Source of the DNA: a virus
IMG/VR virus record: IMGVR_UViG_3300043444_000140
Location: 43,036-107,035 of that record
Length of the DNA stretch: 64,000 nucleotides
Direction: 5' to 3' (one strand)
Positions 9,192 through 52,310 of this stretch are shown piece after piece. The notes beneath the pieces are model-generated. The model had not been told where the DNA came from, ran no database searches, and was given only the letters and a program-made list of their open reading frames with translations. The stretch's first letter is position 1. Each line of letters starts with the position of its first letter. The position numbers and the translations under genes are program-made.

Positions 9192-9872
9192 ATGGCTACC
9201 GCAATATACAAATCTGCAATAATTGAAACCATTGATCGTGAGGAGATATACATCACTCCACTAAAAATCAAGTATCTAAGGTTGTTCATGGAAGAATTTG
9301 GCAATGTAAGAAAGTCTTCAAATAATGACGATGCCTTCACGTTTGTTTCTAAGTGTGCCCTGATCGCCATGAAACAGTACAAGCCAGAGATAAAGACAAT
9401 TGAGCAGGTAGAAGACTCTTTTGACCTAGCAACGCTCTATACAGTTCTTGATATAGCAGCAGGCATTAGCATGAAGAGCCCAGAAGACTCTGGAGAAAGT
9501 ATCCCTGAGCAGGCTAATAGCAAAGAAAACAACTCTTGGGAAACTATAGACCTTGCTAAGTTGGAGTCAGAGGTGTTCTTGCTGGGTATTTGGAAAGACT
9601 ATGAGGAACTAGAGTCATCTCTATCAATGCCAGAGTTATCGGAAACTCTCAACGCTAAACGAGAGCAGTCGTATAATGAAAAGAAGTTTATGGCATCACT
9701 CAAGGGTATTGACATTGACGGTGGTAAGCCAGAAGAGAACGCATGGGAAAAACTAAAGAACAAGGTTATGAATAAGGGTAAAGACTCTAACGACATTACT
9801 TCGCTTACTGGAGCAAGGGCTAGAAAAGCAGGCTTTGGTATCGGTATGGGCATGTCGTATGAAAAACACTAA
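9192..9872 (+). CDS. tail assembly chaperone, long form
   Basis: Between tube and tape measure; N-terminal ~95 aa paralogous to 9927..10241 (PLKI..LR.FM..F, IAMKQYKPE). Confidence 0.7.
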   Translation: MATAIYKSAIIETIDREEIYITPLKIKYLRLFMEEFGNVRKSSNNDDAFTFVSKCALIAMKQYKPEIKTIEQVEDSFDLATLYTVLDIAAGISMKSPEDSGESIPEQANSKENNSWETIDLAKLESEVFLLGIWKDYEELESSLSMPELSETLNAKREQSYNEKKFMASLKGIDIDGGKPEENAWEKLKNKVMNKGKDSNDITSLTGARARKAGFGIGMGMSYEKH

Positions 9873-9926
9873 TCTTAAATCTTTTGTTTATGTTATAATT
9901 AATAAGACCTTTAAAGGAGGAAACAC

Positions 9927-10241
9927 ATGGCAACAACCGTAAATGAAGCAAAGACAGTTACTATGCTTGACGGAACTAAAATTGAAATTAGACCACTAAA
10001 GATCTCTCTTCTTCGTCCATTCATGGACAAGTTCGAGAAGATCGCAGAGGTCGCAGACAATAACTCAAAATCAATGGACCTTCTTCTAGAATGTGTGGCT
10101 ATTGCTATGAAGCAGTACAAGCCAGAACTAGCAGAGAAGCCAGCAGACTTGGAAGATCTTCTTGACCTTCCAACAGTCTATGAAATTGTGGAGGAAGCAT
10201 CTGGACTTAAGATTGCCCAGACTGCTGCTACACTACTGTAG
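9927..10241 (+). CDS. tail assembly chaperone, short form
   Basis: AGGAGG RBS, own TGTTATAAT; directly precedes tape measure. Confidence 0.7.
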   Translation: MATTVNEAKTVTMLDGTKIEIRPLKISLLRPFMDKFEKIAEVADNNSKSMDLLLECVAIAMKQYKPELAEKPADLEDLLDLPTVYEIVEEASGLKIAQTAATLL

Positions 10242-10271: not shown

Positions 10272-13200
10272 ATGGCTGATTCCCAGACTAATATCAATAT
10301 AAATATTGATACCAGTCAAGCCCTAGCAAACCTGCAGGCTTTGCAGTCTCAGATATCAGCCTTCCAAACCTCGATGGCTCGTGGCACTGCCACGCAAGCA
10401 GCAAACGCTGCCAAACTAAGACAAAACCTAATAAACGACATCAATGCAACTAAAAAGTTTGCAGCAGGTATCACAGATATCAAGACCACTACAGAGTCGT
10501 TTACAACCTCACTTGAGAAAAACAAGTTCTCAATGGGGCAATACTTTAAGTATGCTGGTGGTGCAACAAAGAATTTCGGTAAACTATTCAAAACCGAAAT
10601 GGCAACTATTGATAAGGTTGCTCGTGAACGTGTCAAAGACCTACAGACCCAATACATCCAACTAGGTCGTGACGCAAACGGTGCCATGAAGGCAATTTCC
10701 GTAAGACCACTAGTTCTTGACATGGAAAACCTGGGAACCAAAACAGCCATCGCTGCCCAGAAACAACAGATTCTAAACCAACTCCTAAAGCAGGGGTCAA
10801 CAAACATGCTCAACTGGGGTAAGAACACCCAGTGGGCAGGTCGTCAGTTGATGGTTGGTTTTACAGTTCCTCTAACTATGGCAGGTACTGCAGCAGCCAA
10901 AGCATTCATGGACATGGAGCAGGCTGCAATTAAGTTTAGCAGGGTATACGGAAGTTTTGGAACAACTACTAAAGACGTAGACGCAATGGTAGACTCAGTA
11001 AAGAGACTAGCCTCCGAGTTTACAAAGTACGGTGTTGCGGTGTCAGACACAATGACCATGGCTGCAGATGCTGCAGCAGCAGGTAAAGAGGGCGTTGAAC
11101 TATTAGAGCAGGTAACTAACGCAACCAGGCTTGCAATTCTTGGTAACGTAGATCAGCAACAAGCACTGGAAACAACAATGTCTCTAACAAATGCGTTTGG
11201 TATTGCTGCAGAAGAACTCACAGGGAAGATCAACTTCCTTAACGCAGTTGAAAACCAAACCGTTACCGCCATTGAAGACCTTACAATTGCTATTCCAAAG
11301 GCTGCTCCAGTTATTCAGCAACTTGGTGGAGACGTAGAAGACCTAGCATTCTTCCTAACAGCAATGAAGGAAGGTGGAATTAACGCATCAGAAGGTGCTA
11401 ACGCACTTAAGTCTGGTCTTGCATCTTTGATTAATCCAACCAACAAGGCATCTGAGTTCCTGCAGAGTTTTGGCATTAACGTAAAGAACATCGTTGAGTC
11501 AAACATGGGAGACGTTAAGGGTCTAGTTGTTGAGTTTGCATCAGCCCTCGACACCCTAGATCCACTAAACCGTGCACGTGCCATCGAACAGATGTTTGGT
11601 AAGTTCCAGTTCTCACGTCTATCAACATTGTTCCAGAACGTAATTGACGAGGGTAGCCAGGCAAACAAGGTTCTGGGGCTTACAAGGGCAACCTCTGAAG
11701 AATTGGCAATCCTATCTGAGCGAGAGTTGAAGAAGGTTGAAAGTTCTCCAATGTTCAAGTTCCAGAAGTCAATCGAAGACATCAAGGCAAAACTTGTTCC
11801 AATTGGAGAAGCATTCCTAAAGGCTATTACTCCTGTTATTGATTTCGTAGGAAAGTTCCTAGACGGATTTAATAAGATGTCCGAGGGTGCAAAGAGTTTC
11901 TGGATTACAACCACAGCAATCCTTGCTGGTGTTGGTCCAGCACTTCTAATGACAGTTGGTCTTGTTGCTAACGGTATTGCAAACCTTATTAAGATGTTTG
12001 CATCTATCAAGTCATTCATTAACAGAACTTCGCAAGATACGAATGCTTTGGGTGAATCAACCTCATACATGACCGCAGAGCAGATCAGAGCAGCAGCGGT
12101 CGCTGCATCACTTGAGCAGGTACACCAAACCCTAGAACAAAGATTTACATCAGAAGCAGCCTCAGTAGACAAACTGACGCAGGCTTACGGAAGAAACATC
12201 GCAGCACAATCTGCATACAGTAACGCAAACCTTATTCCAACAACTCCAGTTAGGGGTGCAAAGAAATTTGCAACTGGTGGATTTGTGTCTGGTCCTGGAA
12301 CAGGAACGTCGGATTCAATCCCTGCCATGCTGTCAAATGGCGAAGCAGTTATCCCAGCAAAGTCAGTTGCACAAAACCCTGACCTAGTTAGAGGCTTGAT
12401 TGCAGGAAACGTTAAGGGTTACTCTCAAGGTGGAATTGCTAATGGCAAGGCGGTCGTAGCCTTTGGTGCACACCAACCATTCACAGTCGCTCACGAGATG
12501 ATCGCAAGAATGGGTATGGATATGGCTGCCGAGTCAGGTGCCACATTCAAGCAGTTCTCAACTGCCCAGGGTAAGTCGAAGAGATCTCTACTCACTGACG
12601 ACCTAAAGAAGAAACTTATCCAGGAGTCTATTGGTATAACTCCAGACATTACCAAGAACCCATTCACCCTGATGGAGTCCCTATCTGCACAAGGTATCAA
12701 GGACGTAACCCTACTTCTTGGTCAAGACAGAATGGCTGCTGGAGTATTCGACAAGGCAGCAGCAGACTACGGAATTACTCTACGCAAGGTTGCTATCCCT
12801 AGAGATCCAGGATCACCATCTGGCACCGAGACAAGACTAGCAATTTCAAACAACAACACCAGAAGATATCAGGAACTAATTGCCTCTGGTGCATCTCAGG
12901 CGACCAAGGATGAAGTATTTAAGCAGATGAAGTCTGCCATGTCAATGCCAAAGATGGCTAAGGGCGGTATCGTTTCTGGACCTGGAACAGGAACCTCAGA
13001 TTCAGTTCCAACTCTGCTATCTCGTGGCGAAGCGGTAATCCCTGCTAAGTCGGTAGCAAGCAATCCAGAACTAGTAAGAGGACTGATTGCAAATAACATT
13101 CCAGGATTCAGCGAAGGCTTTGACTCGACAGGACTAATAAGTGCTGCTATGGCTAAGTATCGTGGATCAAAGCCCGAAGTATTCCAGGCTCAGTTTGAAA

Positions 13201-16200
13201 GAGAACTTGAAGACATTCTCAAAACAACTGGAGATACTCAAACAATGCTACTTGAGCAACTTCAAAAGTACGTAGATACAACAAAGACTACTGCAAAAGC
13301 AACCATGAAGAGGTTCATGTCTCAAAACGAAGAGCAGGGGAAAAACCTAAGACCGTTATACAACAGGAAGGCTGCACAACAGGCTGGAGGAGACTTTGCT
13401 CACGTAGAAGATAGCAGGGAAGTTTCTGCACAGTATGTTCTAGACAACAGCCCAAACCTTCAGGCAGGGCACAGAGAGAGACTGGAAAGACTAGTTGCAA
13501 ATAATCCAGATTATAAGGTTATGGCTGGAAGTGGCTTGGGCTTTACTCAGTCAAATGCACTTAATCTAAAAATGAGCAGAGGGAAAAAGAGTGCTCCTGT
13601 AGAAGAATTTTTGGCAGATTTTGAATCAAGAGGTGTCGGAAAATGGACCCAGAGTGCTGAGATTGCTGGTCTTAAGATGGCAGATATTTCTGACGAACTA
13701 AAGATTTACGACGACGCACTTGCTGCTGGGGTAAGGCAATGGCAAGGAATGAATCCAACTCTTGAGTTGACCCAGCAAGAGTTTGCAAACATAGAGCGTA
13801 ACGTTAGAACAACTATCGCACCACAAATACCAGTTGTCGCTCAGGCTTTTGGAGATCTTGCAAATGAACTACATGATCTAAGATACCTTGTGGGAGAAAA
13901 GGAATTTGCAGCAACTGGAATTAAGAAGAACCCATATAGACAGTTCCCAAGAAAGGGCAAAAAATCCGCAACTGATGCATTGTCTCCAGTGCCACTAAGC
14001 GAAATGCCACTAACACTTTCAAATGAATTTGCAGATGAAGCAGCGGTACAGGCACAGACAAAGTCTCCATCTAAGAGAACACGCAAGGTAGCAAAAGACA
14101 CTGTTGATGGATACGTTCTTGAACTTGAGAATGGTGAAGCAAGAGTTGCAGAAGCAGCAGCCACAGCAGAAAAGAAGCGTGGTAAGATGGCTGGCATTGG
14201 CGACAAGGCATCTGGGTTCTTTGCAAGAAGAAAGCAACAGGCTGCACTAGACAAGCAGATGGCTGCAGAAAGAACTGCCATTGCGTCTGAGTTGCTTCTA
14301 GCAACCGATAAGGAGTACGGGGCACTTGCTGCACAAAGACAACTCTTAAACAGAAAGGTAACACTAACTGACGCAGAGTATGCTGACCTATTAAAGACCA
14401 TCAACTTGATGGGGGTAAAGGAAGCAGAGATTGCTACCGACATCAAGAACAATGGTGCTGAGTCTAAGGTACTTAAAGAGAGAATTGCCCTTGCTGCAGA
14501 ACGTGGCATTGCAATTAATGCTGAACAGGCTGCAAACCTAAAGGAACAAAAACTAAGTCGTCGTGAAAGACTGGGCAACTTCGTCAGGGGTGGTGCTGGA
14601 AGAATGTCTGGAATCGGCATGACAGCATCTATGGTTGCTGGCTCATTGACGATGATTCCTGGAGCAATTGGAGAAATGGCACAGAGCATTACCCCAGTAA
14701 TTGGTGGCTTGTCTATGATGTCTATGATGATTCAGGGTCCAGTTAGTGCTGGTATCGTAGGACTAGTCGCTGCCATCGGTGCAGTTGTTTATGGATTTAT
14801 GCAATACAACGCATCAATTGACAAGGGTATTGACAAGGCTCTTGCATTTGGAGATGCTCTAGGAAGCGGTACAAAGGCTATGCAGGGCTTGGCAGAGTTT
14901 GCTGGTAACGTAACCGCATCAGAAGTCCTAGATAGACGTAGAACTCAGGCTGTAAACCCATATCAGGTTGTAAGCGGTAAGACGACCTTTGGAGAGTCAT
15001 ACCTAGAGTCTGATGGTGGCAAGGCAATGGCTAAGGCTATCGGAGACCAGGCTAAGGTTTCTGGTAAGGCTGGCGTTGGTGGAAACATGAAGAACCAACT
15101 AGTATCTGCTGTTCTTTCTGGGGCATTGGGTGCAGCACAGGCTAGAAGCATTGCAGTTAATCTTGGTAGAGAACTTGGCGACGAAGAACTGGGTATTAGA
15201 GTTGCTGGAGAAATTGCAGAACTTGTGGGTCCAAATGGAGAAAACGTTCTTAAGGATGGCTTGGCTATTAGGGTCAAGATGATGCAAGAAACTAGAGGTC
15301 AGATTGGAAGTTCTGCAGCAAACCTAAACCAAATGGGTGGCTTTACAGGAACAGAAATGCTTCAGACTGGTGGTGGCATCGCAGCAGGTGCAGGTGCTGG
15401 AGCCGTTGCAGGTGCAGTGATTGGATCATTCCTTGGACCAATTGGAACTGGTGTTGGGGCTATTGTCGGAACTATTGCAGGTGGAATCACTGGTGGTCTT
15501 CTAGGTGCTCAAGAACATGCAGAACGTCTGGGGTATCTAGCAGGAGCAACCGTATCTATTCAGTCAACTGCACTAGAGCAACAAAAGCAAATGCTAGACT
15601 CTCTAGAACTAGACTACGAGAAGCGTATTGAGGCTGCCAAGGCTGCTGGCGACACCGCAAAGGCAGATGAACTTCAGAACAAGTTGATTGCTGAAAGACA
15701 AAATCTTCTAAAGCAGAACGCACTCACCCAGCAAACAATTACTGATTCGTTTAAGAATTCACAATACCAGAATGAGATGATGGCTGGTGTAGACAAGGCT
15801 ATCGAGAAAAAGTACAAAGACACCCCAATGGAGGACATCGCCAAGGTCGCAAGAGACAAACTAGGTGGCATCCAAAATAGAGAACAGCAATTCACCATGA
15901 AGATGCTTCTCAATACAAACGTAGATCCATTGCAGATGCTTGCCATTACAGACATCATGGGCACCGACCAATCAGCAATCTCTAAGGTTCTAAACATTAA
16001 TGCAAACCTTGGTGGATCAAACCTAAACCAGGTAATGGCAATCTCTGGACTATTTACTGACCAAAATGGCAAGCCAGCCACCCAAATTCAAAAAGACTTC
16101 ATTATCAGGATGTCTTCCGTTACAGACGGAGAGCAAGCAAACAAGTTGATGACTCTATACTCAGAACTTGGAAAGTCTGGTATGGGATGGGTAAATGCTT

Positions 16201-18968
16201 CGGTACTTGTTGACTTTGTATCAAAGAACCCAGCACTCGAAACCAAGTTGATGAATGATATCCAAGAGATCAAAGATCTTCGAGGCAATAAACTTTCAGT
16301 AGACATTGTGTCAAAGGCAAGTATCTTGAATGCAGACGAGATGGCAATCCTTAGAGATGACATGGAGTACTTCAATAGCATTGACACTAAAGAAGGACAA
16401 CAACTATACTTGCAGACCGTTGCAACATATTCTGGAGTTGCAAAGATTGATGACCCAGGATTCCAGTCTTGGCTAGCAGCCGAGGGTAAGGCGTACAGGG
16501 CAGACTCTTATGGATGGATCAAGTATGTAGAGTGGCTAGCACAGAGAGCAACCAACACGAGAATTGGTGCCAATGCCTTTGCAAAGGACCCTAACGATAC
16601 TCCTAGCAGCACAAGCAGTGGTCCATCAGCATCTTGGCTAGACGATTACGTTAAGGGCGTTAGAGACCTAACAAATGCTTCTCAGGGTCTAACAGTTGGC
16701 TATGCAGCCTCGGCAAAGGCTTTAGATGCTTTTGCAAAGAAGAGTTCAAGTTTTAAGAATTCATTTAATGGTCTTGCCAATAACCTATATGCCTCTGGTA
16801 TTAGCCAGGACATCATTGACAACATTCTTGGTATGCCAAAGGAAGAAGCCGAAAAAGAAATGAAGCGATTCTTTGACAAGAATGGCAAGGTAACAGAATT
16901 CCTAAAGAGGCTTCAAAAAACAGCAGCAATCACCAGAATTGCCAAAACAGTAGAGTCTGGACTGCAGTCAACAAGGTCAATCTATGACAGGGTGGATGCA
17001 ACAAAGGCACTAGCCCTAGGCAATAAGAACGCAGCACTAACCTCAGAAATGCTTGCTGATTCAGATATGGTTGTTGCCCTTGCAGGTGTAAAACTTATTG
17101 GCAACCTAAAGGATCAGAAGGATGCTGTAGAGAAGTTGACCAAGGCAAAACTTGCAAGCCTTGCTATGGACAGACTGTCTAAGGGTAAGACTCAGAACGA
17201 AATTGATGATGCTCAAATCAAGATTGACGTTCTAGAGGCTGAAAACAACATCTACCAAAATGGACTAGACATTATTTCCAAGAAGGCAGAAAAGATTGCA
17301 GAAGTTTACGATCGCCAAATCAAGGCACTCCAAGAGGTAAAGTCTGTAAACGACGAAATTTCAAGACAAAAGCAGGGCGAACTAGACATTGCGGATGCAC
17401 TATCTCGTGGTGACATTGGTGCTGCTGCAAAGGCTGCCCAACAACTAAGAGCACAAAATGCACAGGCTGCTGCAGAGGCACAAATGAAGGCTCTAGAAGA
17501 TGCAAAGCAGAGAGCAATGGACTCAATAACTGTAGAGATTAATGGTCAAAAACTAACAAGAGCAGACCTTGAGCAGAAGATGTATGATATCCAACTCCAG
17601 GTTCTTGAGATTAGAAAAGACGAAATTGTTCAAAACGAACTAATTCTTGCACAACAAAGACAAAGTTTAAACAGCCTTATTGCTCAAACAGCAGAGCAGA
17701 TTAAGAGAAATGCTGAAGCAGGCAAGCCAATTACCCAAACCATTACTAAGGTCATTAAGACTGTCAGTTCTGGTAGTGGTGGCAATGGCGGAGGAAATCC
17801 AAATACAACTAATAACAACGATCCAAAAACAGAACTACCAACAACAATAACTCCACCAACCGCCAAGAGTTTGCTTGGTATTGGAACAAGCAAAGCAAAA
17901 GACTCGTCAGTAATTAAGAGCATGGATCCAAAAACAAGCAGTGACAAAGCCATCAAGGACTTTGGAACATTGTTTGCCGAAGGAGATAAGAGTGGGTTCA
18001 CAAACTATGCAACAGATGCGATTGCCAAGCGAGCACTAAGTGCAGACAAGTATAAGGACTGGAAAGCATGGTTTGAAAAGTATTCTGCAGCAGAGACCAT
18101 GGTCTCTTCGCTATACGGTACGAATGCAAAGACTGTTCTTGGAAGCATTAAAACTGGAACAAGAAACAAAGAAAATATTAACAATATTGCTACAAGCATG
18201 TACAATGCTTATGGTGCCAAAGTAACAGGGGAGCAAAAAACCGAAGGCTTTGCAGACCTGTCTCCAGAACTTCGTGGAGCACTTAACTATCTGGTAACCC
18301 TAAATAGCAGTTTCCAGGCAAACAAGCAAGAACTTGCAACCGCTACAAGCACCATTAAGGGTTATAAGTCAGCATATGAAAAGATTGACAGTCTTGCATC
18401 TATGAGAAAAACCTGGAGTGACGCTAAGGGTGCAGCAAAGAAGAATACAGAATATCAAAAACTAATAGATGCTTATGGAGCATCCTTCGATTCAGATGTT
18501 CAGAAATACCTAACTTCTAGCAACTTGATGAAGCAAAATGTGTCCAACGCATATTCAACCAGGAAAGCACTGATAGACGCAAAATACAAAGAGTCAGACT
18601 TTTCTTGGATTCCAGGATACTTCTCTGGAATTGTGACACAAAACCCTGCATACAATGCAGATGTGAATAAGATTATTCCATCTAAGATTAAGTACTACTC
18701 TGTAGGAGATCTTGCAAAGGGCACCGACGTTGTCCCTGCAATGCTAACACCAGGTGAGTTTGTGGTCACTCAGCCAGCAGTTAAGAACTTTGGGGTAGAC
18801 AATCTAAGGGCAATCAATAGTGGCACCTACGGCGGAGATTCAGTGTATAATTATAGTGTCAATGTAAATGTCTCTAATACAGGTGCTAATGCAAATGATA
18901 TTGCCAGAACCGTAATGACACAGATTAAGCAAATTGACGCACAAAGACTTAGGAGCAACAATCTATAA
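10272..18968 (+). CDS. tape measure protein (2898 aa) with embedded nucleotidyltransferase-like domain
   Basis: Longest ORF, Ala-rich helical; TP901-type core (GGINASEGANALKSGL), hydrophobic segments, glycine zipper, SPSK motif, GTD.VPAML..GEFVV motif. Confidence 0.92.
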   Translation: MADSQTNININIDTSQALANLQALQSQISAFQTSMARGTATQAANAAKLRQNLINDINATKKFAAGITDIKTTTESFTTSLEKNKFSMGQYFKYAGGATKNFGKLFKTEMATIDKVARERVKDLQTQYIQLGRDANGAMKAISVRPLVLDMENLGTKTAIAAQKQQILNQLLKQGSTNMLNWGKNTQWAGRQLMVGFTVPLTMAGTAAAKAFMDMEQAAIKFSRVYGSFGTTTKDVDAMVDSVKRLASEFTKYGVAVSDTMTMAADAAAAGKEGVELLEQVTNATRLAILGNVDQQQALETTMSLTNAFGIAAEELTGKINFLNAVENQTVTAIEDLTIAIPKAAPVIQQLGGDVEDLAFFLTAMKEGGINASEGANALKSGLASLINPTNKASEFLQSFGINVKNIVESNMGDVKGLVVEFASALDTLDPLNRARAIEQMFGKFQFSRLSTLFQNVIDEGSQANKVLGLTRATSEELAILSERELKKVESSPMFKFQKSIEDIKAKLVPIGEAFLKAITPVIDFVGKFLDGFNKMSEGAKSFWITTTAILAGVGPALLMTVGLVANGIANLIKMFASIKSFINRTSQDTNALGESTSYMTAEQIRAAAVAASLEQVHQTLEQRFTSEAASVDKLTQAYGRNIAAQSAYSNANLIPTTPVRGAKKFATGGFVSGPGTGTSDSIPAMLSNGEAVIPAKSVAQNPDLVRGLIAGNVKGYSQGGIANGKAVVAFGAHQPFTVAHEMIARMGMDMAAESGATFKQFSTAQGKSKRSLLTDDLKKKLIQESIGITPDITKNPFTLMESLSAQGIKDVTLLLGQDRMAAGVFDKAAADYGITLRKVAIPRDPGSPSGTETRLAISNNNTRRYQELIASGASQATKDEVFKQMKSAMSMPKMAKGGIVSGPGTGTSDSVPTLLSRGEAVIPAKSVASNPELVRGLIANNIPGFSEGFDSTGLISAAMAKYRGSKPEVFQAQFERELEDILKTTGDTQTMLLEQLQKYVDTTKTTAKATMKRFMSQNEEQGKNLRPLYNRKAAQQAGGDFAHVEDSREVSAQYVLDNSPNLQAGHRERLERLVANNPDYKVMAGSGLGFTQSNALNLKMSRGKKSAPVEEFLADFESRGVGKWTQSAEIAGLKMADISDELKIYDDALAAGVRQWQGMNPTLELTQQEFANIERNVRTTIAPQIPVVAQAFGDLANELHDLRYLVGEKEFAATGIKKNPYRQFPRKGKKSATDALSPVPLSEMPLTLSNEFADEAAVQAQTKSPSKRTRKVAKDTVDGYVLELENGEARVAEAAATAEKKRGKMAGIGDKASGFFARRKQQAALDKQMAAERTAIASELLLATDKEYGALAAQRQLLNRKVTLTDAEYADLLKTINLMGVKEAEIATDIKNNGAESKVLKERIALAAERGIAINAEQAANLKEQKLSRRERLGNFVRGGAGRMSGIGMTASMVAGSLTMIPGAIGEMAQSITPVIGGLSMMSMMIQGPVSAGIVGLVAAIGAVVYGFMQYNASIDKGIDKALAFGDALGSGTKAMQGLAEFAGNVTASEVLDRRRTQAVNPYQVVSGKTTFGESYLESDGGKAMAKAIGDQAKVSGKAGVGGNMKNQLVSAVLSGALGAAQARSIAVNLGRELGDEELGIRVAGEIAELVGPNGENVLKDGLAIRVKMMQETRGQIGSSAANLNQMGGFTGTEMLQTGGGIAAGAGAGAVAGAVIGSFLGPIGTGVGAIVGTIAGGITGGLLGAQEHAERLGYLAGATVSIQSTALEQQKQMLDSLELDYEKRIEAAKAAGDTAKADELQNKLIAERQNLLKQNALTQQTITDSFKNSQYQNEMMAGVDKAIEKKYKDTPMEDIAKVARDKLGGIQNREQQFTMKMLLNTNVDPLQMLAITDIMGTDQSAISKVLNINANLGGSNLNQVMAISGLFTDQNGKPATQIQKDFIIRMSSVTDGEQANKLMTLYSELGKSGMGWVNASVLVDFVSKNPALETKLMNDIQEIKDLRGNKLSVDIVSKASILNADEMAILRDDMEYFNSIDTKEGQQLYLQTVATYSGVAKIDDPGFQSWLAAEGKAYRADSYGWIKYVEWLAQRATNTRIGANAFAKDPNDTPSSTSSGPSASWLDDYVKGVRDLTNASQGLTVGYAASAKALDAFAKKSSSFKNSFNGLANNLYASGISQDIIDNILGMPKEEAEKEMKRFFDKNGKVTEFLKRLQKTAAITRIAKTVESGLQSTRSIYDRVDATKALALGNKNAALTSEMLADSDMVVALAGVKLIGNLKDQKDAVEKLTKAKLASLAMDRLSKGKTQNEIDDAQIKIDVLEAENNIYQNGLDIISKKAEKIAEVYDRQIKALQEVKSVNDEISRQKQGELDIADALSRGDIGAAAKAAQQLRAQNAQAAAEAQMKALEDAKQRAMDSITVEINGQKLTRADLEQKMYDIQLQVLEIRKDEIVQNELILAQQRQSLNSLIAQTAEQIKRNAEAGKPITQTITKVIKTVSSGSGGNGGGNPNTTNNNDPKTELPTTITPPTAKSLLGIGTSKAKDSSVIKSMDPKTSSDKAIKDFGTLFAEGDKSGFTNYATDAIAKRALSADKYKDWKAWFEKYSAAETMVSSLYGTNAKTVLGSIKTGTRNKENINNIATSMYNAYGAKVTGEQKTEGFADLSPELRGALNYLVTLNSSFQANKQELATATSTIKGYKSAYEKIDSLASMRKTWSDAKGAAKKNTEYQKLIDAYGASFDSDVQKYLTSSNLMKQNVSNAYSTRKALIDAKYKESDFSWIPGYFSGIVTQNPAYNADVNKIIPSKIKYYSVGDLAKGTDVVPAMLTPGEFVVTQPAVKNFGVDNLRAINSGTYGGDSVYNYSVNVNVSNTGANANDIARTVMTQIKQIDAQRLRSNNL
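12267..12431 (+). repeat. intragenic direct repeat copy 1 (55 aa, FATGGFVSGPGTGTSDSIPAMLSNGEAVIPAKSV...)
   Basis: 41/55 aa identical to copy at 12954..13118 (manual alignment). Confidence 0.95.
12954..13118 (+). repeat. intragenic direct repeat copy 2 (MAKGGIVSGPGTGTSDSVPTLLSRGEAVIPAKSV...)
   Basis: See copy 1; a more diverged third copy lies at about 18693..18825. Confidence 0.95.
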
Positions 18969-19626: not shown

Positions 19627-22600
19627 ATGTTTTATGATGCAAAACTACAAGAACACCTGGAGACATCTTCTTCAGTAAAGAATAAATCGCTAATCGTTGC
19701 CGAATGGAACATGAATATTCCAGACAACATTTCTATGGTGGGCAACTATCGCTATAGAAAAGACTCAGCCACATACAGGTTTCTTCCAGTACAGTTTTTG
19801 GAAAATGATCCAGCCCACAAAGGTGCGACTCTATCAGACGTAGTTGTTGACAACGGATTTGACGTTGACGATAACCCAATTCAATTCTCTTCTGCAGACA
19901 AGAAAGAAAGTTTCTATTACTCGCTTGACGAGTGTCTTGGCAAGTTTCGTCCACGCTCTGGAATTAACAAGGTAAGGTTCTTTGGACAGGATTCGGGCGT
20001 ACACTTTCTAAATGGAACAACAGAAAATGGCTTGGGTCAGTCATTCCTTGACACGAATAGACCAAGATACTATGCTCCAGATAAGGGAGATAAGTTTAAG
20101 TACTGGACATCATTTAGATTTGAAAGTGGACTAGAGTATGGAGTAGCCAATAAGGCTATAGCAGGATCTGCGGAGTACAAGATTGACGATGCAGTGCCAT
20201 TTGTTGTATACAAAGACAGTGTTCCTGCAAACAGGGTAGTTGTCAAGATGCAAACAAATGTGGGAACCGTTACTGTTGGACCAGTATTGACAGAGCAGGG
20301 AACCATTCCAGACCCACTATATGGAATAAGCAACGCAACTGTGCCAGTTAGATGGAAGATTCAAGGTCTAGTAGGCAACAACTGGGAAGATCTAAAGTCC
20401 TTTGATTCTAACTCTATTAGAAGAAGCGGTAAACCAATCATCGGTGAAGATGGATATGTAGAACTATCGTATGGATTGATTGTGCCAGAAGAATATAGGG
20501 ATATCTTTATTCAGGCAGAGACATATTATACTGCATCAGTGCTACCAATTAAGGCTGTCAACGGGTACGCATACCTGATTAAGAATTCTCTAGACGATGT
20601 AGGGACATACCACATCTGGATTGATGATGCACAAGAGTACAAGACGTTTGTTCCAAAGTACGGTTGGGAAGTTGCAGAAGAGACTGTAGACAGATTCACA
20701 CACTACGTAGTTGACACAACCAATCCAGACAACTTTAAGGACACTACTAATCAGTTTAGAAAGACATTCAGAGAGTACCAAGAACTTCGTGGAATTAGAA
20801 TTGTGGTAGACTCTATGAAAAAGTTTGACTCTACCTTCGACCTAATTGAGATGTCTACACGCCTAGCAGTAAACATAACCGAAAAGACAAAGAGCGTATC
20901 TGTTAAGAAGATAGCGTCCGATCTAGGAATTAGCGGTCTTCCTGTTGGACAACTATTAGCATCTACGGGAACGATAGAAATATTTGATTATGATGATGCT
21001 TTTAATAGAAACAACATCTATAATATTGACACAAATACAAGCGGAAGTATTATTGCAAAGTATGCAGCAAATCAAATTCAATTTAAGATTTATGATGTCA
21101 CGGCAGAAGTCTTGGAAAACGGCATCTACTACGACTACTTTGTTCCCATTAAGACGCTGTACGGCGACGGATTCCCACAACTAAATGTAGAGTCTAGGTC
21201 TGTCAATATCAACCTAAGAGACATGTTCTCATACTTTGAGTCGTTTACCGCACCACAGATATTAGCCACAGACGCTTCCCTGAGTTATGCCGTATCCTTC
21301 TTGCTAGATAGCATTGGCTTTGGAAATTATGTATTTAAGAGAACTGCCTCAGAGTCAGAGCCAATCATTCCATTCTTTTATGTAGAGCCAGATGTAACTG
21401 TTGCAGACATCCTCAACGAACTTGCCAGATCTACCCAGACCGCAATGTTCTTTGACGAGTACAACAACTTTGTCATGATGTCAAAAAACTATATGCTCCC
21501 AAGTGCTTCCGACAGAGGGCAAGATCTCACTCTTTATGGATCAGCAGACTCTGCAAGAAATGGGGTAGAGAGAAACGCAAAAACTAAGAGCAAACTAGCG
21601 AATATTATTAGTATTGCAAGCCAAGACACGGAGGTTTACAATGATGGAAAGATTAATTTTACAACCAGATATATTCAAAAGTCATACTCTTCAATTGAGC
21701 AGGCTAACAAACTAGACCGTGACAAGAAGTGGACGTACAAGCCTTCCTTGCTATGGGAGGTATCTCCTTCAGAGGCAACCAAGGGTCAGAACGAAGAAGA
21801 TGGATCTCTATCAGTCTACTCACTTACGGCAATACCACTCAAGACCGACCTATCTGAGGCACTTCCAAAGGTAAACAACAAGGGTGAAATCATTAACAAT
21901 ATAATTGACTTTGGCGATGCAGCATTCTGGATGGGAAGATACGCAGGATACTTCTACGCCAATGGTGAAATTATTAGGTACGACGCAGTAGAGTATTCAG
22001 TTCTAGGTGGAGGTGCTTCAACTGCGTGGATTAGCAGCCTAGAAGAGTATCAGTACTACTTCTCAAAGATTCCTTTTAATGGCAAGATGTATCCGACAGG
22101 AAGAGTTAGAATCTATGCAAAGCCATTCTATAGCAAAGAGACAGGTCTGCCACTACAAGACAATGTCGAGGTCCATGGTCGTGGTCAATTTGGTACCTCT
22201 GTTGTAGCACACAAGGCAGGCATCTCTGGTTCAGAGTGGACTACAAATGTTTCTGGAGTCACAATGGACGCTGACTATATCTTCAGTGCCATCGGAAACT
22301 TCCAACTCAGAGATGGGTACGTGCCATACAAGGCAACTATTCCATTGCAGTTCTTTGGATCTGGATCAAACAACTGGACGCTATCTGGTCCAGGTACGCT
22401 GTCAAAGACATCTGGAACAGCGGTTGGGGCATCTACAGACTCTTCTGTATCAACAAACATAAGAAGCGAAAAGGAGCATAGTTACTCTTTGTCAATCGCT
22501 GGCACAAAAGTCTACGAGGTATCTCAAAAACTGAAGGACCAGTACAACGTTGACAATAAGACATTGCTTGGAGAAATGTACGTAAAAAATGTTCAGGCAG

Positions 22601-25134
22601 GAACAACTGCTGGAACGTCAAAACTGACACTGTCAGTGACACTGCCTTCGTACAGGTCTTTCTTTAAGGATACTACAACTGCAGGCAAATCACCTAGTGG
22701 ATCTTTTTCTTGGAGCATTGTCGGAGCCCCCGTGACTGGTGGAAACTATGGAACAATTAAAGCAGGCAAGAAGACAGTTAAAGATAAAAAGGGCAACAAC
22801 GTTATTCAGGACGACGCTACCAAGACCAAGATTTATCAGGGAGAAAGCACAACCGCTATGACCCCAACTTCTGGAACAGAAACAAGTGCAAACCTTGTTA
22901 TTGACTTAGTGGTGGACAACGTATCTAGAGATACTCTAAATCCTTTCTGGCTTATCGTCGGTACAAATACAGACCCTGTTAGAACTATTCAGATAAAGCC
23001 AGGAACAGTTTCTGGAGTAATTAAGCCATTGACCACAAAAGAGGTTGCCTACAACAACAGGACAATTCATGTCGAAGATACTAGCGGTATTAAGGTGGGA
23101 CAGTCTCTAAAACTAGGTAAAAAAGAAACAATCGTCAGTGGTTCAGAGAGCAAGATCGTCAATCCATTTGACGTAGACAATAGCAAGAACCTCAGAGTTG
23201 CCTCTATCATAGACGAAAATAAGTTTACCATTAAGCACAAGGGCGATGCCCAGGGAGGTATCTCTACTGCCAATCTTGGCAAAGATATGGAAACATTAAC
23301 GTTCGAAGAACTAAGGACTCTGACATCAAATCCAGAGATAAAGGCTGGTTCCCAGACTAACCTAAGCGGTAAGAAAAACAGTTCAACCCTAGCAGCAGAG
23401 TCAACAAGAACTGGTGTTATAAAGAACTTCCTTAGCACAAACTCTGGTGTTGACGATACTGGTGTTGCAAATCCAAACACCATTCCACAAGGAAGCGTAC
23501 AGTCTTCGGCACTCATTTTGTCTGGTCCATCTTTTACGAATGCAGATGACCCAGAGAGCGTTAACTTTATTTCCTATGCATACAAAGAACTTTCAAAAAC
23601 AGCAAAGTACAAGTACTTTGGAACAAGGCTTAGACTTGTTGGTAGATATGACTACGGAAACCAGCAATCTGGAGTTGGAGAAGAAGTTTGGTACACCAAC
23701 AAACAACTCTCTGCGTCTGGTCTTCCAGGCACAGGAACCACAGTAAAGGCTTCATCTGCTGGAATGGCTGTTATGCTAAATCCAAAAACTAACAACGGAT
23801 ACTATTTTGAAATTGCAGCGGTATCGGATACAGGAGTTGCAAAGCAGATTGTAAAGTATTCCGATGATGGTAAGCAAATAGAAGACCCAATCCACAACCT
23901 GCTTTTCTACAAGATGAATGCTGGTGTTGACGAAGACGGTGCCCTTCTTGACAAAGACAAGGCTACTCCCGTAAAACTATGGGGAGGATTTACAAACATT
24001 CTAGTTGACGACGGACTGCTGACTGGTCAGGCTAGAATGACATCCACATCTATTCCAAACACAGTTTATGACATTGCTGTGGAGTATGAGATTGTAAATG
24101 AAAATCACATCAAGTTCTATCTATATGTTAATAACATTCTCGTAGGCACTGTAACAGACAAAGAGCCATTCCTCGACTCAGCAAGCAAGCCAATCATCTA
24201 CAATAACATGGGGCTGTTTGTACGTGGAAAGGCTAAGGCAATGTTTGAGAACGTGTTTGCTATGGGAGCAAACCCTAGCCAAAACCGTGGCACAGATGTT
24301 GTAGCAGGTGGAGTTGTAAACGGTGTGTTTAGCGAAGACTCAATAAATCTAAATGAGTCAATGAAGAAATACGCACTAAGCGGAATTATTCCAGAAAAGT
24401 ATTTGAGCGGAATTGACTCTGCAACACCTGCTAGCAGTAATCTTTATTATGACGAATTCGGAACGATCATGCGAGAGGTAGCATACTTTAATGTAAGATA
24501 CGACAAGTCCTATCCAGCACTAGTAGCCCAGATAGCACCAACATATAACAATAATAGGGGTTTCTTCGTTTCTGGATTCATCGCTGGACCATACTCTGCA
24601 GAGTTCTTGGTGTTTAACGCAACAGACTCTGTGCTATATCTTGACGGCAGTGGGGGAAACTACCTAAGAATTAACGGTATAACATTCACTCAACAGTCAA
24701 CTCACGAACTAACAGTTGATGAATACTTTGCTCTTAGAAGCAGTTTGTCAGATCCACAAACTCCAGTAGGTTCCGACCTTGTAAAATCTCCACTAAAAGA
24801 AGCACAAGAATACAACGTGATTAGAAACAGTAGATCTGCTTATGGCAAAAAAGAATTTACGCTAGACTCAAGATATATCCAGAGTCAGGACTACGCAAAC
24901 GGATTGATGGGATGGCTAATTGGCAAGATCATGAAGCCAAGAAAATCAGTTGGAGTGACCGTATTTTCTATGCCAACCATCCAACTTGGAGACATTGTGT
25001 CGATTGATATGGTAGACTCAGATGGCAAAGACATGGTTGCACCAAGTTCGTCAAGATTTGTGGTTTACCAGATTGACTATGAGAAGTCGTCTGAGGGACC
25101 GTCAATGTCTGTTTATCTAAGTGAGGTAGTATAG
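19627..25134 (+). CDS. large tail tip/baseplate hub protein (1835 aa)
   Basis: Hub-like segments (ILNELARSTQTAMFFDEYNNFV; PTIQLGDIVSI), beta-rich; synteny. Confidence 0.7.
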   Translation: MFYDAKLQEHLETSSSVKNKSLIVAEWNMNIPDNISMVGNYRYRKDSATYRFLPVQFLENDPAHKGATLSDVVVDNGFDVDDNPIQFSSADKKESFYYSLDECLGKFRPRSGINKVRFFGQDSGVHFLNGTTENGLGQSFLDTNRPRYYAPDKGDKFKYWTSFRFESGLEYGVANKAIAGSAEYKIDDAVPFVVYKDSVPANRVVVKMQTNVGTVTVGPVLTEQGTIPDPLYGISNATVPVRWKIQGLVGNNWEDLKSFDSNSIRRSGKPIIGEDGYVELSYGLIVPEEYRDIFIQAETYYTASVLPIKAVNGYAYLIKNSLDDVGTYHIWIDDAQEYKTFVPKYGWEVAEETVDRFTHYVVDTTNPDNFKDTTNQFRKTFREYQELRGIRIVVDSMKKFDSTFDLIEMSTRLAVNITEKTKSVSVKKIASDLGISGLPVGQLLASTGTIEIFDYDDAFNRNNIYNIDTNTSGSIIAKYAANQIQFKIYDVTAEVLENGIYYDYFVPIKTLYGDGFPQLNVESRSVNINLRDMFSYFESFTAPQILATDASLSYAVSFLLDSIGFGNYVFKRTASESEPIIPFFYVEPDVTVADILNELARSTQTAMFFDEYNNFVMMSKNYMLPSASDRGQDLTLYGSADSARNGVERNAKTKSKLANIISIASQDTEVYNDGKINFTTRYIQKSYSSIEQANKLDRDKKWTYKPSLLWEVSPSEATKGQNEEDGSLSVYSLTAIPLKTDLSEALPKVNNKGEIINNIIDFGDAAFWMGRYAGYFYANGEIIRYDAVEYSVLGGGASTAWISSLEEYQYYFSKIPFNGKMYPTGRVRIYAKPFYSKETGLPLQDNVEVHGRGQFGTSVVAHKAGISGSEWTTNVSGVTMDADYIFSAIGNFQLRDGYVPYKATIPLQFFGSGSNNWTLSGPGTLSKTSGTAVGASTDSSVSTNIRSEKEHSYSLSIAGTKVYEVSQKLKDQYNVDNKTLLGEMYVKNVQAGTTAGTSKLTLSVTLPSYRSFFKDTTTAGKSPSGSFSWSIVGAPVTGGNYGTIKAGKKTVKDKKGNNVIQDDATKTKIYQGESTTAMTPTSGTETSANLVIDLVVDNVSRDTLNPFWLIVGTNTDPVRTIQIKPGTVSGVIKPLTTKEVAYNNRTIHVEDTSGIKVGQSLKLGKKETIVSGSESKIVNPFDVDNSKNLRVASIIDENKFTIKHKGDAQGGISTANLGKDMETLTFEELRTLTSNPEIKAGSQTNLSGKKNSSTLAAESTRTGVIKNFLSTNSGVDDTGVANPNTIPQGSVQSSALILSGPSFTNADDPESVNFISYAYKELSKTAKYKYFGTRLRLVGRYDYGNQQSGVGEEVWYTNKQLSASGLPGTGTTVKASSAGMAVMLNPKTNNGYYFEIAAVSDTGVAKQIVKYSDDGKQIEDPIHNLLFYKMNAGVDEDGALLDKDKATPVKLWGGFTNILVDDGLLTGQARMTSTSIPNTVYDIAVEYEIVNENHIKFYLYVNNILVGTVTDKEPFLDSASKPIIYNNMGLFVRGKAKAMFENVFAMGANPSQNRGTDVVAGGVVNGVFSEDSINLNESMKKYALSGIIPEKYLSGIDSATPASSNLYYDEFGTIMREVAYFNVRYDKSYPALVAQIAPTYNNNRGFFVSGFIAGPYSAEFLVFNATDSVLYLDGSGGNYLRINGITFTQQSTHELTVDEYFALRSSLSDPQTPVGSDLVKSPLKEAQEYNVIRNSRSAYGKKEFTLDSRYIQSQDYANGLMGWLIGKIMKPRKSVGVTVFSMPTIQLGDIVSIDMVDSDGKDMVAPSSSRFVVYQIDYEKSSEGPSMSVYLSEVV

Positions 25135-52045: not shown

Positions 52046-52048
52046 CAA

Positions 52049-52236: not shown

Positions 52237-52239
52237 ACT

Positions 52240-52306: not shown

Positions 52307-52310
52307 CAAA

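What the first reader, a model, noticed from the sequence alone, without database searches (positions are those of the whole stretch)
12267..13118. Tape measure protein carries a nucleotidyltransferase cassette bracketed by duplicated 55-aa repeats
Seen: two repeats (12267-12431, 12954-13118; 41/55 aa identical) enclose a 174-aa insert. The insert reads VVAFGAHQPFTVAH...NPFTLMESL...VTLLLGQDR...RDPGSPSGTETR. Established: this matches the HIGH-superfamily (cytidylyltransferase/NMNAT/PPAT-like) pattern FGxFxPxTxGH...GxDR...SxT/SxxR, normally found as a free-standing phage gene. Tape measure proteins leave the tail during genome ejection. Inference: an enzyme is co-delivered at infection before any phage gene expression, possibly for nucleotide/NAD+ repair against host defences or for modifying a host target. 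The repeats could act as recombination platforms for swapping payloads, making a polymorphic effector-delivery system built into the tape measure. This is the best candidate for an undescribed system in the window.
Basis: partly seen in the sequence, partly recalled or inferred. Interest (0 to 1): 0.88.

Follow-up and report, generated by a model that had tools for sequence, protein, structure and literature searches.

The report
Tape measure protein carrying nucleotidyltransferase cassette
The tail "ruler" protein of an uncultured 107-kb phage, probably of freshwater actinobacteria, contains a complete and conserved nucleotide-transferring enzyme domain between two copies of a short motif; related phages carry other enzymes or nothing at that place, so the ruler may also take ready-made enzymes into the host, which has not been tested.

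Summary
The 2,898-aa ORF at 10272-18968 is a TP901-type tape measure protein (TMP). Residues 721-894 fold with high confidence (pLDDT 93.5) as a PPAT/NMNAT-type HIGH-superfamily nucleotidyltransferase (VIA-align Z 15). The domain lies between two 55-aa repeats (42/56 identical, E 4e-30). It is under purifying selection (dN/dS 0.08-0.14) and keeps the T-x-x-H, G-x-D-R and S-G-T-x-x-R signatures, though T-x-G-H has become T-x-A-H.

More than 5,000 giant TMPs share the near-invariant first 720 residues, which end in the first motif copy. After that copy comes a hypervariable stretch of 256-1,520 aa. In it the nucleotidyltransferase (29 of 129 TMPs), a HAD/polynucleotide-phosphatase-like domain (27 of 129, never both), unknown modules or nothing are found, often directly followed by a further motif copy. 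The same motif occurs in phage lambda gpH, in the C-terminal fragment that is cleaved off.

Not shown: catalysis, substrate, processing, and delivery into the cell. The NAD+ repair idea has no genomic support. The repeats share only 68% of their DNA, so they are not a current recombination substrate within this genome. I found no paper describing this. The scan's own notes report similar "cargo" TMPs in about 54 other genomes.

The parts
9192..10241 (+). Two adjacent genes (226 aa and 104 aa) upstream of the TMP. They share an N-terminal domain and sit where the tail assembly chaperones (G/GT) normally lie.
   Evidence: Both match phrog_10504 (E 4e-17 and 4e-15). The role is inferred from position only.
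10272..18968 (+). Tape measure protein gene, 2,898 aa (P0001)
   Evidence: One open frame. TIGR01760 tape_meas_TP901 aa 199-555, E 3.6e-32. PF10145 aa 249-443, E 4.6e-25. The first 720 aa are 31-33% identical to annotated TMPs of Streptomyces and Gordonia phages. Portal, protease and other head genes lie upstream and minor tail proteins downstream.
10272..12266 (+). Conserved N-terminal scaffold (aa 1-665), including a hydrophobic segment at aa 543-576 (window 11898-11999)
   Evidence: More than 5,143 proteins of 1,593-5,072 aa match aa 1-720 at E<=1e-10. Sixteen diverse members show a dense run of invariant columns up to about aa 692-721. Hydropathy scan.
12267..12431 (+). Motif copy 1 (repeat 1, aa 666-720): G-G-x-V-S-G-P-G-T-G-T-S-D-S-I-P-A-M-L-S-N-G-E-A-V-I-P-A-K...
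   Evidence: E 4e-30 against copy 2. In 123 of 129 related TMPs the first copy lies at aa ~600-700. Homology to close relatives ends exactly here. A motif HMM matches lambda gpH aa 753-780.
12432..12953 (+). Nucleotidyltransferase domain (aa 721-894), PPAT/NMNAT-type Rossmann-like fold
   Evidence: phrog_3041 'cytidyltransferase' E 5e-9 and phrog_395 E 1e-4. phmmer links it to free-standing proteins that match PF01467. AF2 pLDDT 93.5, pTM 0.88. Foldseek PDB: PPAT, NMNAT, NadD and FAD synthetase at E ~2e-5. VIA-align Z 15.1, rmsd 2.9 A over 152 residues to PPAT 5h16. BFVD: cyanophage 'cytitidyltransferase', TM 0.8. dN/dS 0.14 and 0.08.
12954..13118 (+). Motif copy 2 (repeat 2, aa 895-949)
   Evidence: Together with the enzyme domain it forms a 229-aa block that is absent from P0048. 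In P0048 the module that follows repeat 2 here follows the single internal motif copy directly.
13119..13931 (+). Module X (aa ~950-1220), a second variable module of unknown family
   Evidence: Shared with about 14 of 83 related TMPs. No Pfam, NCBIfam or Atlas assignment.
13935..14471 (+). Module Y (aa ~1222-1400), a rare variable module of unknown family
   Evidence: Shared with only 3 of 83 related TMPs.
14715..15524 (+). Hydrophobic and glycine-zipper segments (aa 1482-1513 and 1702-1751) at the start of the conserved TMP body
   Evidence: Hydropathy scan. PF13488 Gly-zipper aa 1706-1751, E 1.8e-5. The body aligns with related TMPs at 26-85% identity.
18693..18860 (+). C-terminal, diverged copy of the motif (G-T-D-V-V-P-A-M-L-T-P-G-E-F-V-V...)
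   Evidence: Motif regex and HMM. Present near the C-terminus of 125 of 129 related TMPs. This copy most resembles the lambda gpH match.

Best explanation
The gene encodes the tail tape measure protein of an uncultured siphovirus-type phage of 107 kb. The genome encodes WhiB, so the host is probably an actinobacterium.

The protein has a strongly conserved N-terminal scaffold (aa 1-665) that ends in a 55-aa motif. This motif is the same kind that lies in the cleaved-off C-terminal fragment of lambda gpH. A hypervariable payload region follows, then a conserved membrane-active body and a C-terminal motif copy.

In this phage the first payload is a complete PPAT/NMNAT-type (HIGH-superfamily) nucleotidyltransferase domain followed by a second motif copy. 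This enzyme-plus-motif block behaves as an in-frame cassette. It is absent from relatives with closer scaffolds, sits in other slots in more distant ones, and in other lineages a HAD/polynucleotide-phosphatase-like domain takes its place.

Inferred mechanism: three to six copies of the enzyme domain travel inside the tail tube as part of the TMP. They leave the tail ahead of the DNA and are placed at or across the cytoplasmic membrane between the two hydrophobic segments. There they use host NTP to adenylylate or cytidylylate a phosphorylated small molecule, before any phage gene is expressed. The likely purpose is take-over or counter-defence.

Confidence by step:
- Domain identity and cassette organisation are shown (about 0.95 and 0.85).
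- Catalytic competence is inferred from conserved residues and purifying selection (about 0.65).
- Delivery and action in the infected cell is inferred from TMP biology (about 0.45).
- The substrate is unknown.

The overall confidence given (0.5) is for the whole chain, including delivery.
For: TMP identity.

Fold and homology:
- PHROG 'cytidyltransferase' families at E 5e-9 and 1e-4.
- Exhaustive phmmer found 36 hits. The small ones carry PF01467.
- A profile against PDB sequences gives NMNAT, PPAT and FAD synthetase as weak but consistent hits.
- AF2 pLDDT 93.5; Foldseek probability 1.00; VIA-align Z 15 over the whole PPAT fold.

Constraint:
- G12, T18 and H21 are invariant, and D99, R100, S130 and R135 are invariant or nearly so, across 31 sequences.
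- F-G-A-H-Q-P-F-T-x-A-H, G-x-D-R and S-G/A-T-x-x-R are kept in 11 of 12 embedded copies at 38-79% identity.
- dN/dS is 0.14 and 0.08.

Cassette behaviour:
- Conservation collapses right after motif copy 1.
- The variable region is 256-1,520 aa long.
- The nucleotidyltransferase is in 29 of 129 TMPs, mostly ending at the start of a motif copy.
- P0048 has the same scaffold and the same downstream module X but lacks the 229-aa block.
- TMPs with 73-74% core identity carry a 79%-identical enzyme domain at aa ~1000. Nine TMPs with 78-82% core identity lack it.
- The HAD domain with an intact D-x-D-D-T is in 27 of 129 TMPs, never together with the nucleotidyltransferase.

Plausibility of delivery:
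- TMPs must leave the tail before the DNA, and lambda gpH* forms the trans-envelope channel (PMC12617516).
- Lambda TMP was the only phage protein robustly labelled by TurboID fused to the inner-membrane protein ManZ during injection (PMC13190303).
- Relatives of this enzyme family outside TMPs are fused to ParB-like nuclease, SET+HNH, ATP-grasp+Zn-protease or collagen repeats, architectures typical of phage conflict or virion proteins.
Against: - No activity, virion proteomics or infection data exist for this uncultured phage.
- Pfam's PF01467 model does not match the insert at E<=1.
- The Gly of (H/T)-x-G-H is Ala, and the Arg of the free-standing family's G-R is Ala in all embedded copies. 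This could mean altered or lost chemistry. From memory, ATP sulfurylases use H-x-A-H; I did not test this.
- One embedded copy (P0012) has lost the D-R of G-x-D-R.
- A folded 19-kDa domain barely fits a tail-tube lumen of about 4 nm and would probably have to pass the channel unfolded (general knowledge).
- Which side of the membrane the payload region ends up on is unknown.
- The phage encodes no obvious partner enzyme.
- Loss of the cassette from relatives explains the presence/absence pattern as well as gain by transfer does. The enzyme/core identity excess (79% against 73%) is modest.
Confidence: 0.5

Rival explanations
1. The domain is no longer an enzyme. It serves as a folded spacer, nucleotide-binding or assembly module of the TMP, for example setting tail length or register or binding a chaperone. 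The motif copies are structural joints.
For: The T-x-G-H glycine and the G-R arginine are replaced in all embedded copies, and one copy has lost D-R. Pfam does not recognise the domain. Other modules of the variable region have no recognisable enzyme family. TMP length sets tail length (established knowledge).
Against: The residues that bind ATP and stabilise the transition state in PPAT and NMNAT (T, the second H, D-R, S-x-T-x-x-R) are the most conserved positions of the domain. dN/dS is 0.08-0.14. The alternative cassette, HAD, also keeps its catalytic D-x-D-x-T. A spacer would not need a complete active-site signature.
Confidence: 0.2
2. The enzyme is active but works in the producing cell late in infection. 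TMP is made in many copies in the cytoplasm, so the domain could act there on metabolism or on virion modification. The fusion would be a way to express it, not to deliver it.
For: The TMP is synthesised in the cytoplasm, where NTPs are available. HIGH-type transferases need NTP (established knowledge). Free-standing homologues in other phages are ordinary, non-TMP genes.
Against: The fusion is kept in frame, at a defined slot between membrane-active segments, in dozens of diverged TMPs from different samples. Several unrelated enzyme types share that slot, which is hard to explain by expression convenience. Relatives are also fused to other virion-type proteins such as one with collagen repeats.
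Confidence: 0.12
3. One reading: the domain is an NMN/NaMN adenylyltransferase that rebuilds NAD+ against NAD+-depleting host defences.
For: NMNAT and NadD are among the structural and profile matches.
Against: NMNAT alone cannot rebuild NAD+ from ADP-ribose and nicotinamide. The 99%-complete genome has no Nampt (PF04095), no NUDIX and no other PF01467 gene. The NMNAT-specific Arg and first His of G-R-x-x-P-x-H-x-G-H are Ala and Thr here. PPAT scores slightly higher (Z 15.1 against 13.8). The closest relatives are the uncharacterised cyanophage 'cytitidyltransferase' family.
Confidence: 0.08
4. An addition to the main reading rather than an alternative: the TMP is a polyprotein. The motif copies mark proteolytic processing sites, as in lambda gpH giving gpH* plus gpHC, so the enzyme is released as a free 20-25 kDa protein.
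For: The motif HMM matches lambda gpH aa 753-780, inside the gpHC fragment and next to the Gly-rich region where gpH is cut (PMC12617516). Every module boundary here carries an aromatic-x-x-G-G signature. Within one TMP the internal copies resemble each other (57% identity) far more than they resemble copies in other TMPs (28%), as expected if all must fit one phage-specific partner such as a protease.
Against: The lambda match is short and weak (11 bits). The lambda cleavage site and protease are unknown. No cleavage data exist for this family. Within-protein similarity of copies is explained equally well by local duplication or gene conversion.
Confidence: 0.25

Closest known systems
Tape measure proteins with embedded cell-wall hydrolase domains (T5 pb2 C-terminal fragment, several others; cited in PMC12617516; mycobacteriophage TM4-type motifs from memory)
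   Same: An enzyme domain is built in frame into the TMP and is expected to leave the tail with it at the start of infection.
   Different: Those enzymes degrade peptidoglycan outside the cytoplasm and need no cofactor. Here the domain is an NTP-dependent, cytoplasm-type small-molecule transferase. It sits in a hypervariable slot bounded by motif copies and alternates with a HAD phosphatase-like domain and unknown modules.
Phage lambda gpH and its maturation to gpH* plus gpHC
   Same: It shares the G-E-F-V...G...L...N motif. The TMP is cleaved near this region, and its C-terminal end binds the tail tip.
   Different: [quoted passage not shown] Here there are three copies, two of them internal and flanking a cargo domain.
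Phosphopantetheine adenylyltransferase (CoaD) and archaeal/bacterial NMNAT and NadD; HIGH-signature nucleotidyltransferase superfamily, Pfam PF01467
   Same: The same fold over its whole length (Z 14-15, rmsd 2.5-2.9 A over ~148 residues). The T-x-x-H, D-R and S-x-T-x-x-R positions are conserved.
   Different: Only 10-15% identity, and no Pfam match. T-x-A-H replaces T-x-G-H. A basic loop (G-K-S-K-R / D-x-K-K-N-P-L) is specific to the phage family. The substrate is unknown.
Phage 'cytitidyltransferase' family (phrog_395, phrog_3041; S-PM2, P-HM2, S-RIM2 and many uncultured phages)
   Same: These are the nearest relatives by sequence (25-30% identity, E down to 2e-10) and by predicted structure (TM 0.8).
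   Different: Those are separate genes or N-terminal domains of multi-domain proteins and keep G-R...T-x-G-H. None that I found has an assigned function, and no paper in the library uses the name.
Polyvalent proteins of phages and conjugative elements (Iyer et al. 2017, PMC5512222); virion-delivered enzymes such as N4 vRNAP or P1 Dar proteins
   Same: The concept is the same: large multi-domain proteins that enter with the DNA and carry variable enzyme domains for the first minutes of infection.
   Different: That paper does not mention tape measure proteins, and the only nucleotidyltransferases it names are of the Pol-beta superfamily. Here the carrier is an essential tail-assembly protein.
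TMP-related effectors of actinobacterial contractile injection systems (Sle1; PMC13277306, PMC11126660)
   Same: A TMP-derived scaffold carries exchangeable functional domains, is loaded in a tail-like tube, and occurs in Actinobacteria.
   Different: Those are cargo of bacterial injection systems, not the ruler of an infectious phage. Homology to this TMP was not tested.

Membership tests
Phage tail tape measure protein (TP901 type) | Match to the curated TMP core models above their cut-offs | tested here: met
   TIGR01760 111.7 bits (cut-off 28.8), aa 199-555. PF10145 89.1 bits (cut-off 33.2). Relatives match nine or more PHROG TMP families.
Phage tail tape measure protein (TP901 type) | Position in the tail module: after the chaperone-like genes and before distal and minor tail proteins; the longest gene of the module; hydrophobic or glycine-zipper segments | tested here: met
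   Gene order portal-protease-...-phrog_10504 pair-TMP-minor tail proteins. Hydrophobic segments at aa 543-576, 1482-1513 and 1702-1746.
Phage tail tape measure protein (TP901 type) | Presence inside the tail tube and determination of tail length | not testable with these tools
   Uncultured phage; no virion data.
HIGH-signature nucleotidyltransferase superfamily (PF01467 CTP_transf_like and relatives) | Rossmann-like alpha/beta fold with a parallel sheet, as in PPAT and NMNAT | tested here: met
   AF2 pLDDT 93.5 with beta-alpha-beta order. Foldseek probability 1.00 to PPAT, NMNAT, NadD and FAD synthetase. Z 15.1, rmsd 2.9 A, 152 residues aligned.
HIGH-signature nucleotidyltransferase superfamily (PF01467 CTP_transf_like and relatives) | (H/T)-x-G-H signature after strand 1 | tested here: inconclusive
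   It reads T-V-A-H. T and the second H are invariant, but G is Ala in all embedded copies. Free-standing relatives have T-x-G-H.
HIGH-signature nucleotidyltransferase superfamily (PF01467 CTP_transf_like and relatives) | I-S-x-T-x-x-R-type signature at the C-terminal helix, and the conserved Arg/Asp of the central strand loop | tested here: met
   P-S-G-T-E-T-R (S130 and R135 nearly invariant) and G-Q-D-R (D99 and R100 nearly invariant).
HIGH-signature nucleotidyltransferase superfamily (PF01467 CTP_transf_like and relatives) | Score above Pfam's gathering threshold for PF01467 | tested here: not met
   No PF01467 hit at E<=1 for the insert or in the genome. Membership rests on transitive homology, PHROG profiles and structure. 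One embedded relative (P0125) reaches 17.4 bits, below the cut-off of 21.
HIGH-signature nucleotidyltransferase superfamily (PF01467 CTP_transf_like and relatives) | NTP-dependent nucleotidyl transfer to a phosphate acceptor | not testable with these tools
   Needs biochemistry.
NMN/NaMN adenylyltransferase (NMNAT, NadD, NadR, NadM) | G-R-x-x-P-x-H-x-G-H with catalytic Arg and both His; NAD salvage context | tested here: not met
   The Arg is Ala and the first His is Thr. No Nampt, NUDIX or other salvage gene in the genome.
Phosphopantetheine adenylyltransferase (CoaD) | T-x-G-H family with a PPAT-sized single domain; specific 4'-phosphopantetheine pocket; hexamer | tested here: inconclusive
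   It is the best structural neighbour and the same size, but identity is 10-15%. The substrate pocket and oligomer state were not examined.
Polyvalent (injected multi-enzyme) proteins | Several unrelated catalytic domains in one virion-delivered protein, with variable domain content between relatives | tested here: inconclusive
   Variable domain content is shown. Only one recognisable catalytic domain is present in this protein, and delivery is not testable here.

The most novel reading that the evidence does not exclude
A very large family of uncultured aquatic phages (more than 5,000 TMP clusters) uses the tape measure protein as a programmable injection vehicle. A slot bounded by gpH-type motif copies, between two membrane-inserting segments, holds exchangeable cytoplasm-type enzymes: a HIGH nucleotidyltransferase, a polynucleotide-phosphatase-like HAD domain and many unknown modules. 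These enzymes would be released or exposed in the host cytoplasm, possibly after cleavage at the motifs, and would disarm nucleotide-based defences or reprogramme metabolism before the first phage gene is transcribed.
Probability: 0.3. Interest if true: 0.88.

Novelty: new variant of a known kind. Interest (0 to 1): 0.7.

Why it matters
The only enzymes known inside tape measure proteins are cell-wall hydrolases. If a TMP can carry NTP-dependent, cytoplasm-type enzymes, the earliest moments of siphophage infection would involve pre-made enzymatic effectors. That would extend the "polyvalent protein" idea to an essential tail protein.

It would also give a first functional handle on the widespread, uncharacterised phage "cytitidyltransferase" family. 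The motif-bounded, in-frame-tolerant slot suggests a natural site for engineering cargo into phage tails.

The system is also a clear, testable case of domain-level mosaicism in TMPs. A large survey suspected such mosaicism but could not confirm it (PMC10684548).

Tried and rejected
- Pfam and NCBIfam on the insert: no hit. phmmer of the insert against PDB sequences: no hit.
- Single-sequence AF2 gave a poor model (pLDDT 59). It was replaced by the alignment-based model.
- megablast of the TMP gene and tblastn of the insert against 50,697 deposited phage genomes: no match. No cultured phage in that set carries this cassette.
- BLASTP of repeat 1 against the C-terminal 122 aa found nothing. The third copy was found only by pattern and HMM.
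Only three IMG/VR loci (L003, L005, L007) gave TMP genes that could be translated.
- Sliding-window single-linkage clustering of the variable regions chained most windows into one component and could not define domain families. Only the lower bound is used: 203 of 1,569 windows were unique to one protein.
- Module X (aa 950-1300): the ESM Atlas gave only scores below 0.8, and one NCBIfam hit was below its cut-off.
- Literature searches for TMP plus cytidylyltransferase, nucleotidyltransferase, phosphatase, effector or polyvalent found no description of such a fusion.
- Considered and rejected: an assembly chimera or a fused pair of genes. The same open frame is recorded as P0038, and P0039 (96% identical core, a different 95-kb contig) has the same architecture.
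- Considered and rejected: recent tandem duplication. Synonymous sites between the repeats are nearly saturated.
Full report
**1. What is there**

The finding lies in one open frame, window 10272-18968 (+), 2,898 aa.

- It matches the curated tape measure models: TIGR01760 (aa 199-555, E 3.6e-32) and PF10145 (E 4.6e-25).
- It sits in a head-tail module: portal, maturation protease, an Ig-domain protein and two chaperone-position genes upstream, and minor tail proteins downstream.
- The window is part of a 107,035-bp IMG/VR virus record judged 99% complete.
- GC content is 42-46%, and the window holds five tRNA genes.
- The genome encodes a WhiB-family protein above the Pfam cut-off. In the control set only Corynebacterium has this family.
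- The TMP core is 31-33% identical to TMPs of Streptomyces and Gordonia phages.
- From these points I infer that the host is an actinobacterium.

**2. The repeats**

- Repeat 1 (aa 666-720) and repeat 2 (aa 895-949) are 42/56 identical, E 4e-30.
- At the DNA level they share 68% identity with a longest exact run of 14 nt. Synonymous sites are close to saturation (pS 0.65) while pN is 0.19.
- They are therefore an old pair kept similar as protein.
- A third, diverged copy lies near the C-terminus.
- An HMM built from 294 copies in related TMPs matches lambda gpH at aa 753-780. This is inside the C-terminal fragment gpHC, which is cut off in a glycine-rich region during tail maturation. Residues 818-849 of that fragment bind the hub protein gpI (PMC12617516).
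- The motif is thus the widespread TMP C-terminal G-E-F-V motif, here used three times.

**3. The insert**

- Pfam and NCBIfam do not recognise aa 721-894.
- Two PHROG "cytidyltransferase" families do (E 5e-9 and 1e-4).
- An exhaustive phmmer search of 1.84 billion representatives found 36 hits:
  - 9 giant proteins of 2,200-3,500 aa, plus two shorter records (708 and 237 aa, probably fragments), at 38-79% identity;
  - small proteins of 170-190 aa and multi-domain proteins at 25-30% identity, most of which match PF01467.
- With a 31-sequence alignment, AlphaFold2 gives pLDDT 93.5 and pTM 0.88.
- Foldseek finds PPAT, NMNAT, NadD and FAD synthetase in the PDB with probability 1.00.
- VIA-align gives Z 15.1 (rmsd 2.9 A, 152 residues) to PPAT and about 13.8 to NMNAT and NadD.
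- Predicted viral structures of the cyanophage "cytitidyltransferase" family match at TM about 0.8.
- G12, T18 and H21 of the insert are invariant. P16, D99, R100, S130 and R135 are nearly invariant.
- Embedded copies differ from the free-standing family at two signature positions: G-R becomes G-A-H, and T-x-G-H becomes T-x-A-H. Both changes are fixed in the embedded clade.
- Against two relatives, dN/dS is 0.14 and 0.08.
- I conclude that the fold and superfamily are established and that an active enzyme is likely but unproven. The substrate cannot be named.

**4. The family and the cassette question**

- Residues 1-720 retrieve more than 5,143 proteins of 1,593-5,072 aa at E<=1e-10.
- In 16 diverse members the first ~720 residues are densely invariant, and conservation collapses immediately after motif copy 1.
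- In 84 full-length members, the stretch between copy 1 and the hydrophobic "body" is 256-1,520 aa long.
- Within the window's own variable region:
  - the enzyme domain is shared with 12 of 83 relatives;
  - module X (aa ~950-1220) with about 14;
  - aa 1222-1400 with 3.
- TMPs carry two to four motif copies. The first is always at aa ~665 and the last near the C-terminus.
- The nucleotidyltransferase is present in 29 of 129 giants, usually ending exactly where a motif copy begins.
- Nine of the eleven TMPs whose scaffold is 76-82% identical to the window's lose all similarity right after copy 1.
- One of them, P0048, has the window's module X directly after its single internal copy. Relative to it the window has a clean 229-aa insertion of enzyme plus motif.
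- TMPs with a more distant scaffold (73-74%) and a much more distant body (31%) carry the most similar enzyme domain (79%), at aa ~1000.
- Another 27 of 129 carry a HAD domain:
  - it matches PF03767 and phrog_415/505 "polynucleotide kinase";
  - it has an intact D-x-D-D-T;
  - it is often adjacent to a motif copy;
  - it never occurs together with the nucleotidyltransferase.
- Single members carry endolysin-, LysM-, CW_7- or inositol-monophosphatase-like parts.
- Internal motif copies resemble the same protein's first copy (57% identity) much more than other proteins' first copies (28%).
- These data show a modular payload region with gain, loss or exchange of in-frame blocks at motif boundaries.
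- They do not show the direction of events. The mutual exclusion is not corrected for relatedness.

**5. How it may work**

Shown:
- a TMP with an intact-looking enzyme domain between two hydrophobic regions (aa 543-576, and aa 1482-1513 with 1702-1746).

Established elsewhere:
- TMPs leave the tail before the DNA, and lambda gpH* forms the trans-envelope conduit.
- During injection, lambda TMP was the only phage protein robustly labelled by TurboID fused to the inner-membrane protein ManZ.

Inferred:
- the payload region reaches the cytoplasmic side and the enzyme uses host NTPs there;
- alternatively, cleavage at the motif copies frees it.

Other points:
- Relatives of the enzyme outside TMPs are fused to ParB-like nuclease, SET plus HNH, RimK-type ATP-grasp plus Zn-protease, DUF6267, DUF5872 or collagen repeats. 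This resembles conflict-type or virion-type multi-domain proteins.
- The genome has no Nampt, NUDIX or second PF01467 gene, so the NAD+ repair reading lacks support.

**6. Comparison with what is known, and novelty**

- The only enzymes reported inside TMPs are peptidoglycan hydrolases (statement and references in PMC12617516).
- The polyvalent-protein survey does not mention tape measures. The only nucleotidyltransferases it names belong to the Pol-beta superfamily.
- A large study of phage protein mosaicism could not confirm genuine recent mosaicism in TMPs.
- TMP-derived effectors with exchangeable functional domains are described for actinobacterial contractile injection systems.
- Full-text searches found no description of a nucleotidyltransferase or HAD phosphatase in a TMP.
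- The scan's own notebook holds 55 notes from about 54 other genomes describing cargo-bearing giant TMPs. One has an NMNAT/NadD-like domain and one makes the lambda comparison. These are unchecked AI notes. My lambda test and family tabulation were run before I read them.
- I rate this a new variant of a known kind: TMP-embedded or virion-delivered enzymes.

**7. Limits**

- Module families in the variable region were not resolved.
- The statement that ATP sulfurylases use an H-x-A-H signature, and the catalytic roles of PPAT and NMNAT residues, come from memory and from PDB entry titles. I did not test them.

Noticed in passing
window 55381-55554 (G000:C1:98416-98589, locus L036): A WhiB-family gene: PF02467 50.6 bits, above the cut-off, and among 14 control genomes only Corynebacterium has the family. 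Together with the actinophage-like TMP core and 43% GC, this points to a low-GC actinobacterial host.
   Followed up: partly
window 9192-9872 and 9927-10241: The two genes just upstream of the TMP both match phrog_10504 over their N-terminal ~100 aa. The tail-chaperone position is therefore filled by two paralogous genes (226 aa and 104 aa), not by one gene with an obvious frameshift extension.
   Followed up: no
window 13119-14471 (TMP aa 950-1400): After repeat 2 come two further variable modules without any family assignment. Module X is shared with about 14 of 83 related TMPs. The next ~180 aa are shared with only 3.
   Followed up: partly
related TMPs P0040 (aa 1030-1154), P0107 (aa 1376-1522) and 25 others: A HAD phosphatase domain (PF03767; phrog_415/505 'polynucleotide kinase') with an intact D-x-D-D-T occupies the payload region in 27 of 129 TMPs. 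It never co-occurs with the nucleotidyltransferase. It is usually preceded by M-A-E-G-G-I-V-P-G and often followed by a motif copy.
   Followed up: partly
loci L015, L019, L030, L018/L033, L004, L010: Relatives of the nucleotidyltransferase outside TMPs are fused to SET plus HNH (1,308 aa), ParB-like nuclease, RimK ATP-grasp plus Zn-protease plus DUF3140, N-terminal DUF6267, collagen repeats (enzyme at the C-terminus of a 690-aa protein) or DUF5872. The family seems to be a common building block of multi-domain phage proteins.
   Followed up: no
related TMP P0082 (aa 2039-2124 of 2129): An inositol-monophosphatase-family match (PF00459, E 6e-14) at the very C-terminus of a related TMP, where the usual C-terminal motif and tail would be expected. 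It may be a fusion or a truncated record.
   Followed up: no
window 19627-25134: A 1,835-aa minor tail protein (phrog_10359, four matched stretches) directly follows a 218-aa gene after the TMP, so the tail-tip module is also unusually large.
   Followed up: no
window 51973-52682 and 60373-60604: Five tRNA genes (Asn, Asp, Thr, Glu, Gln) in two clusters.
   Followed up: no
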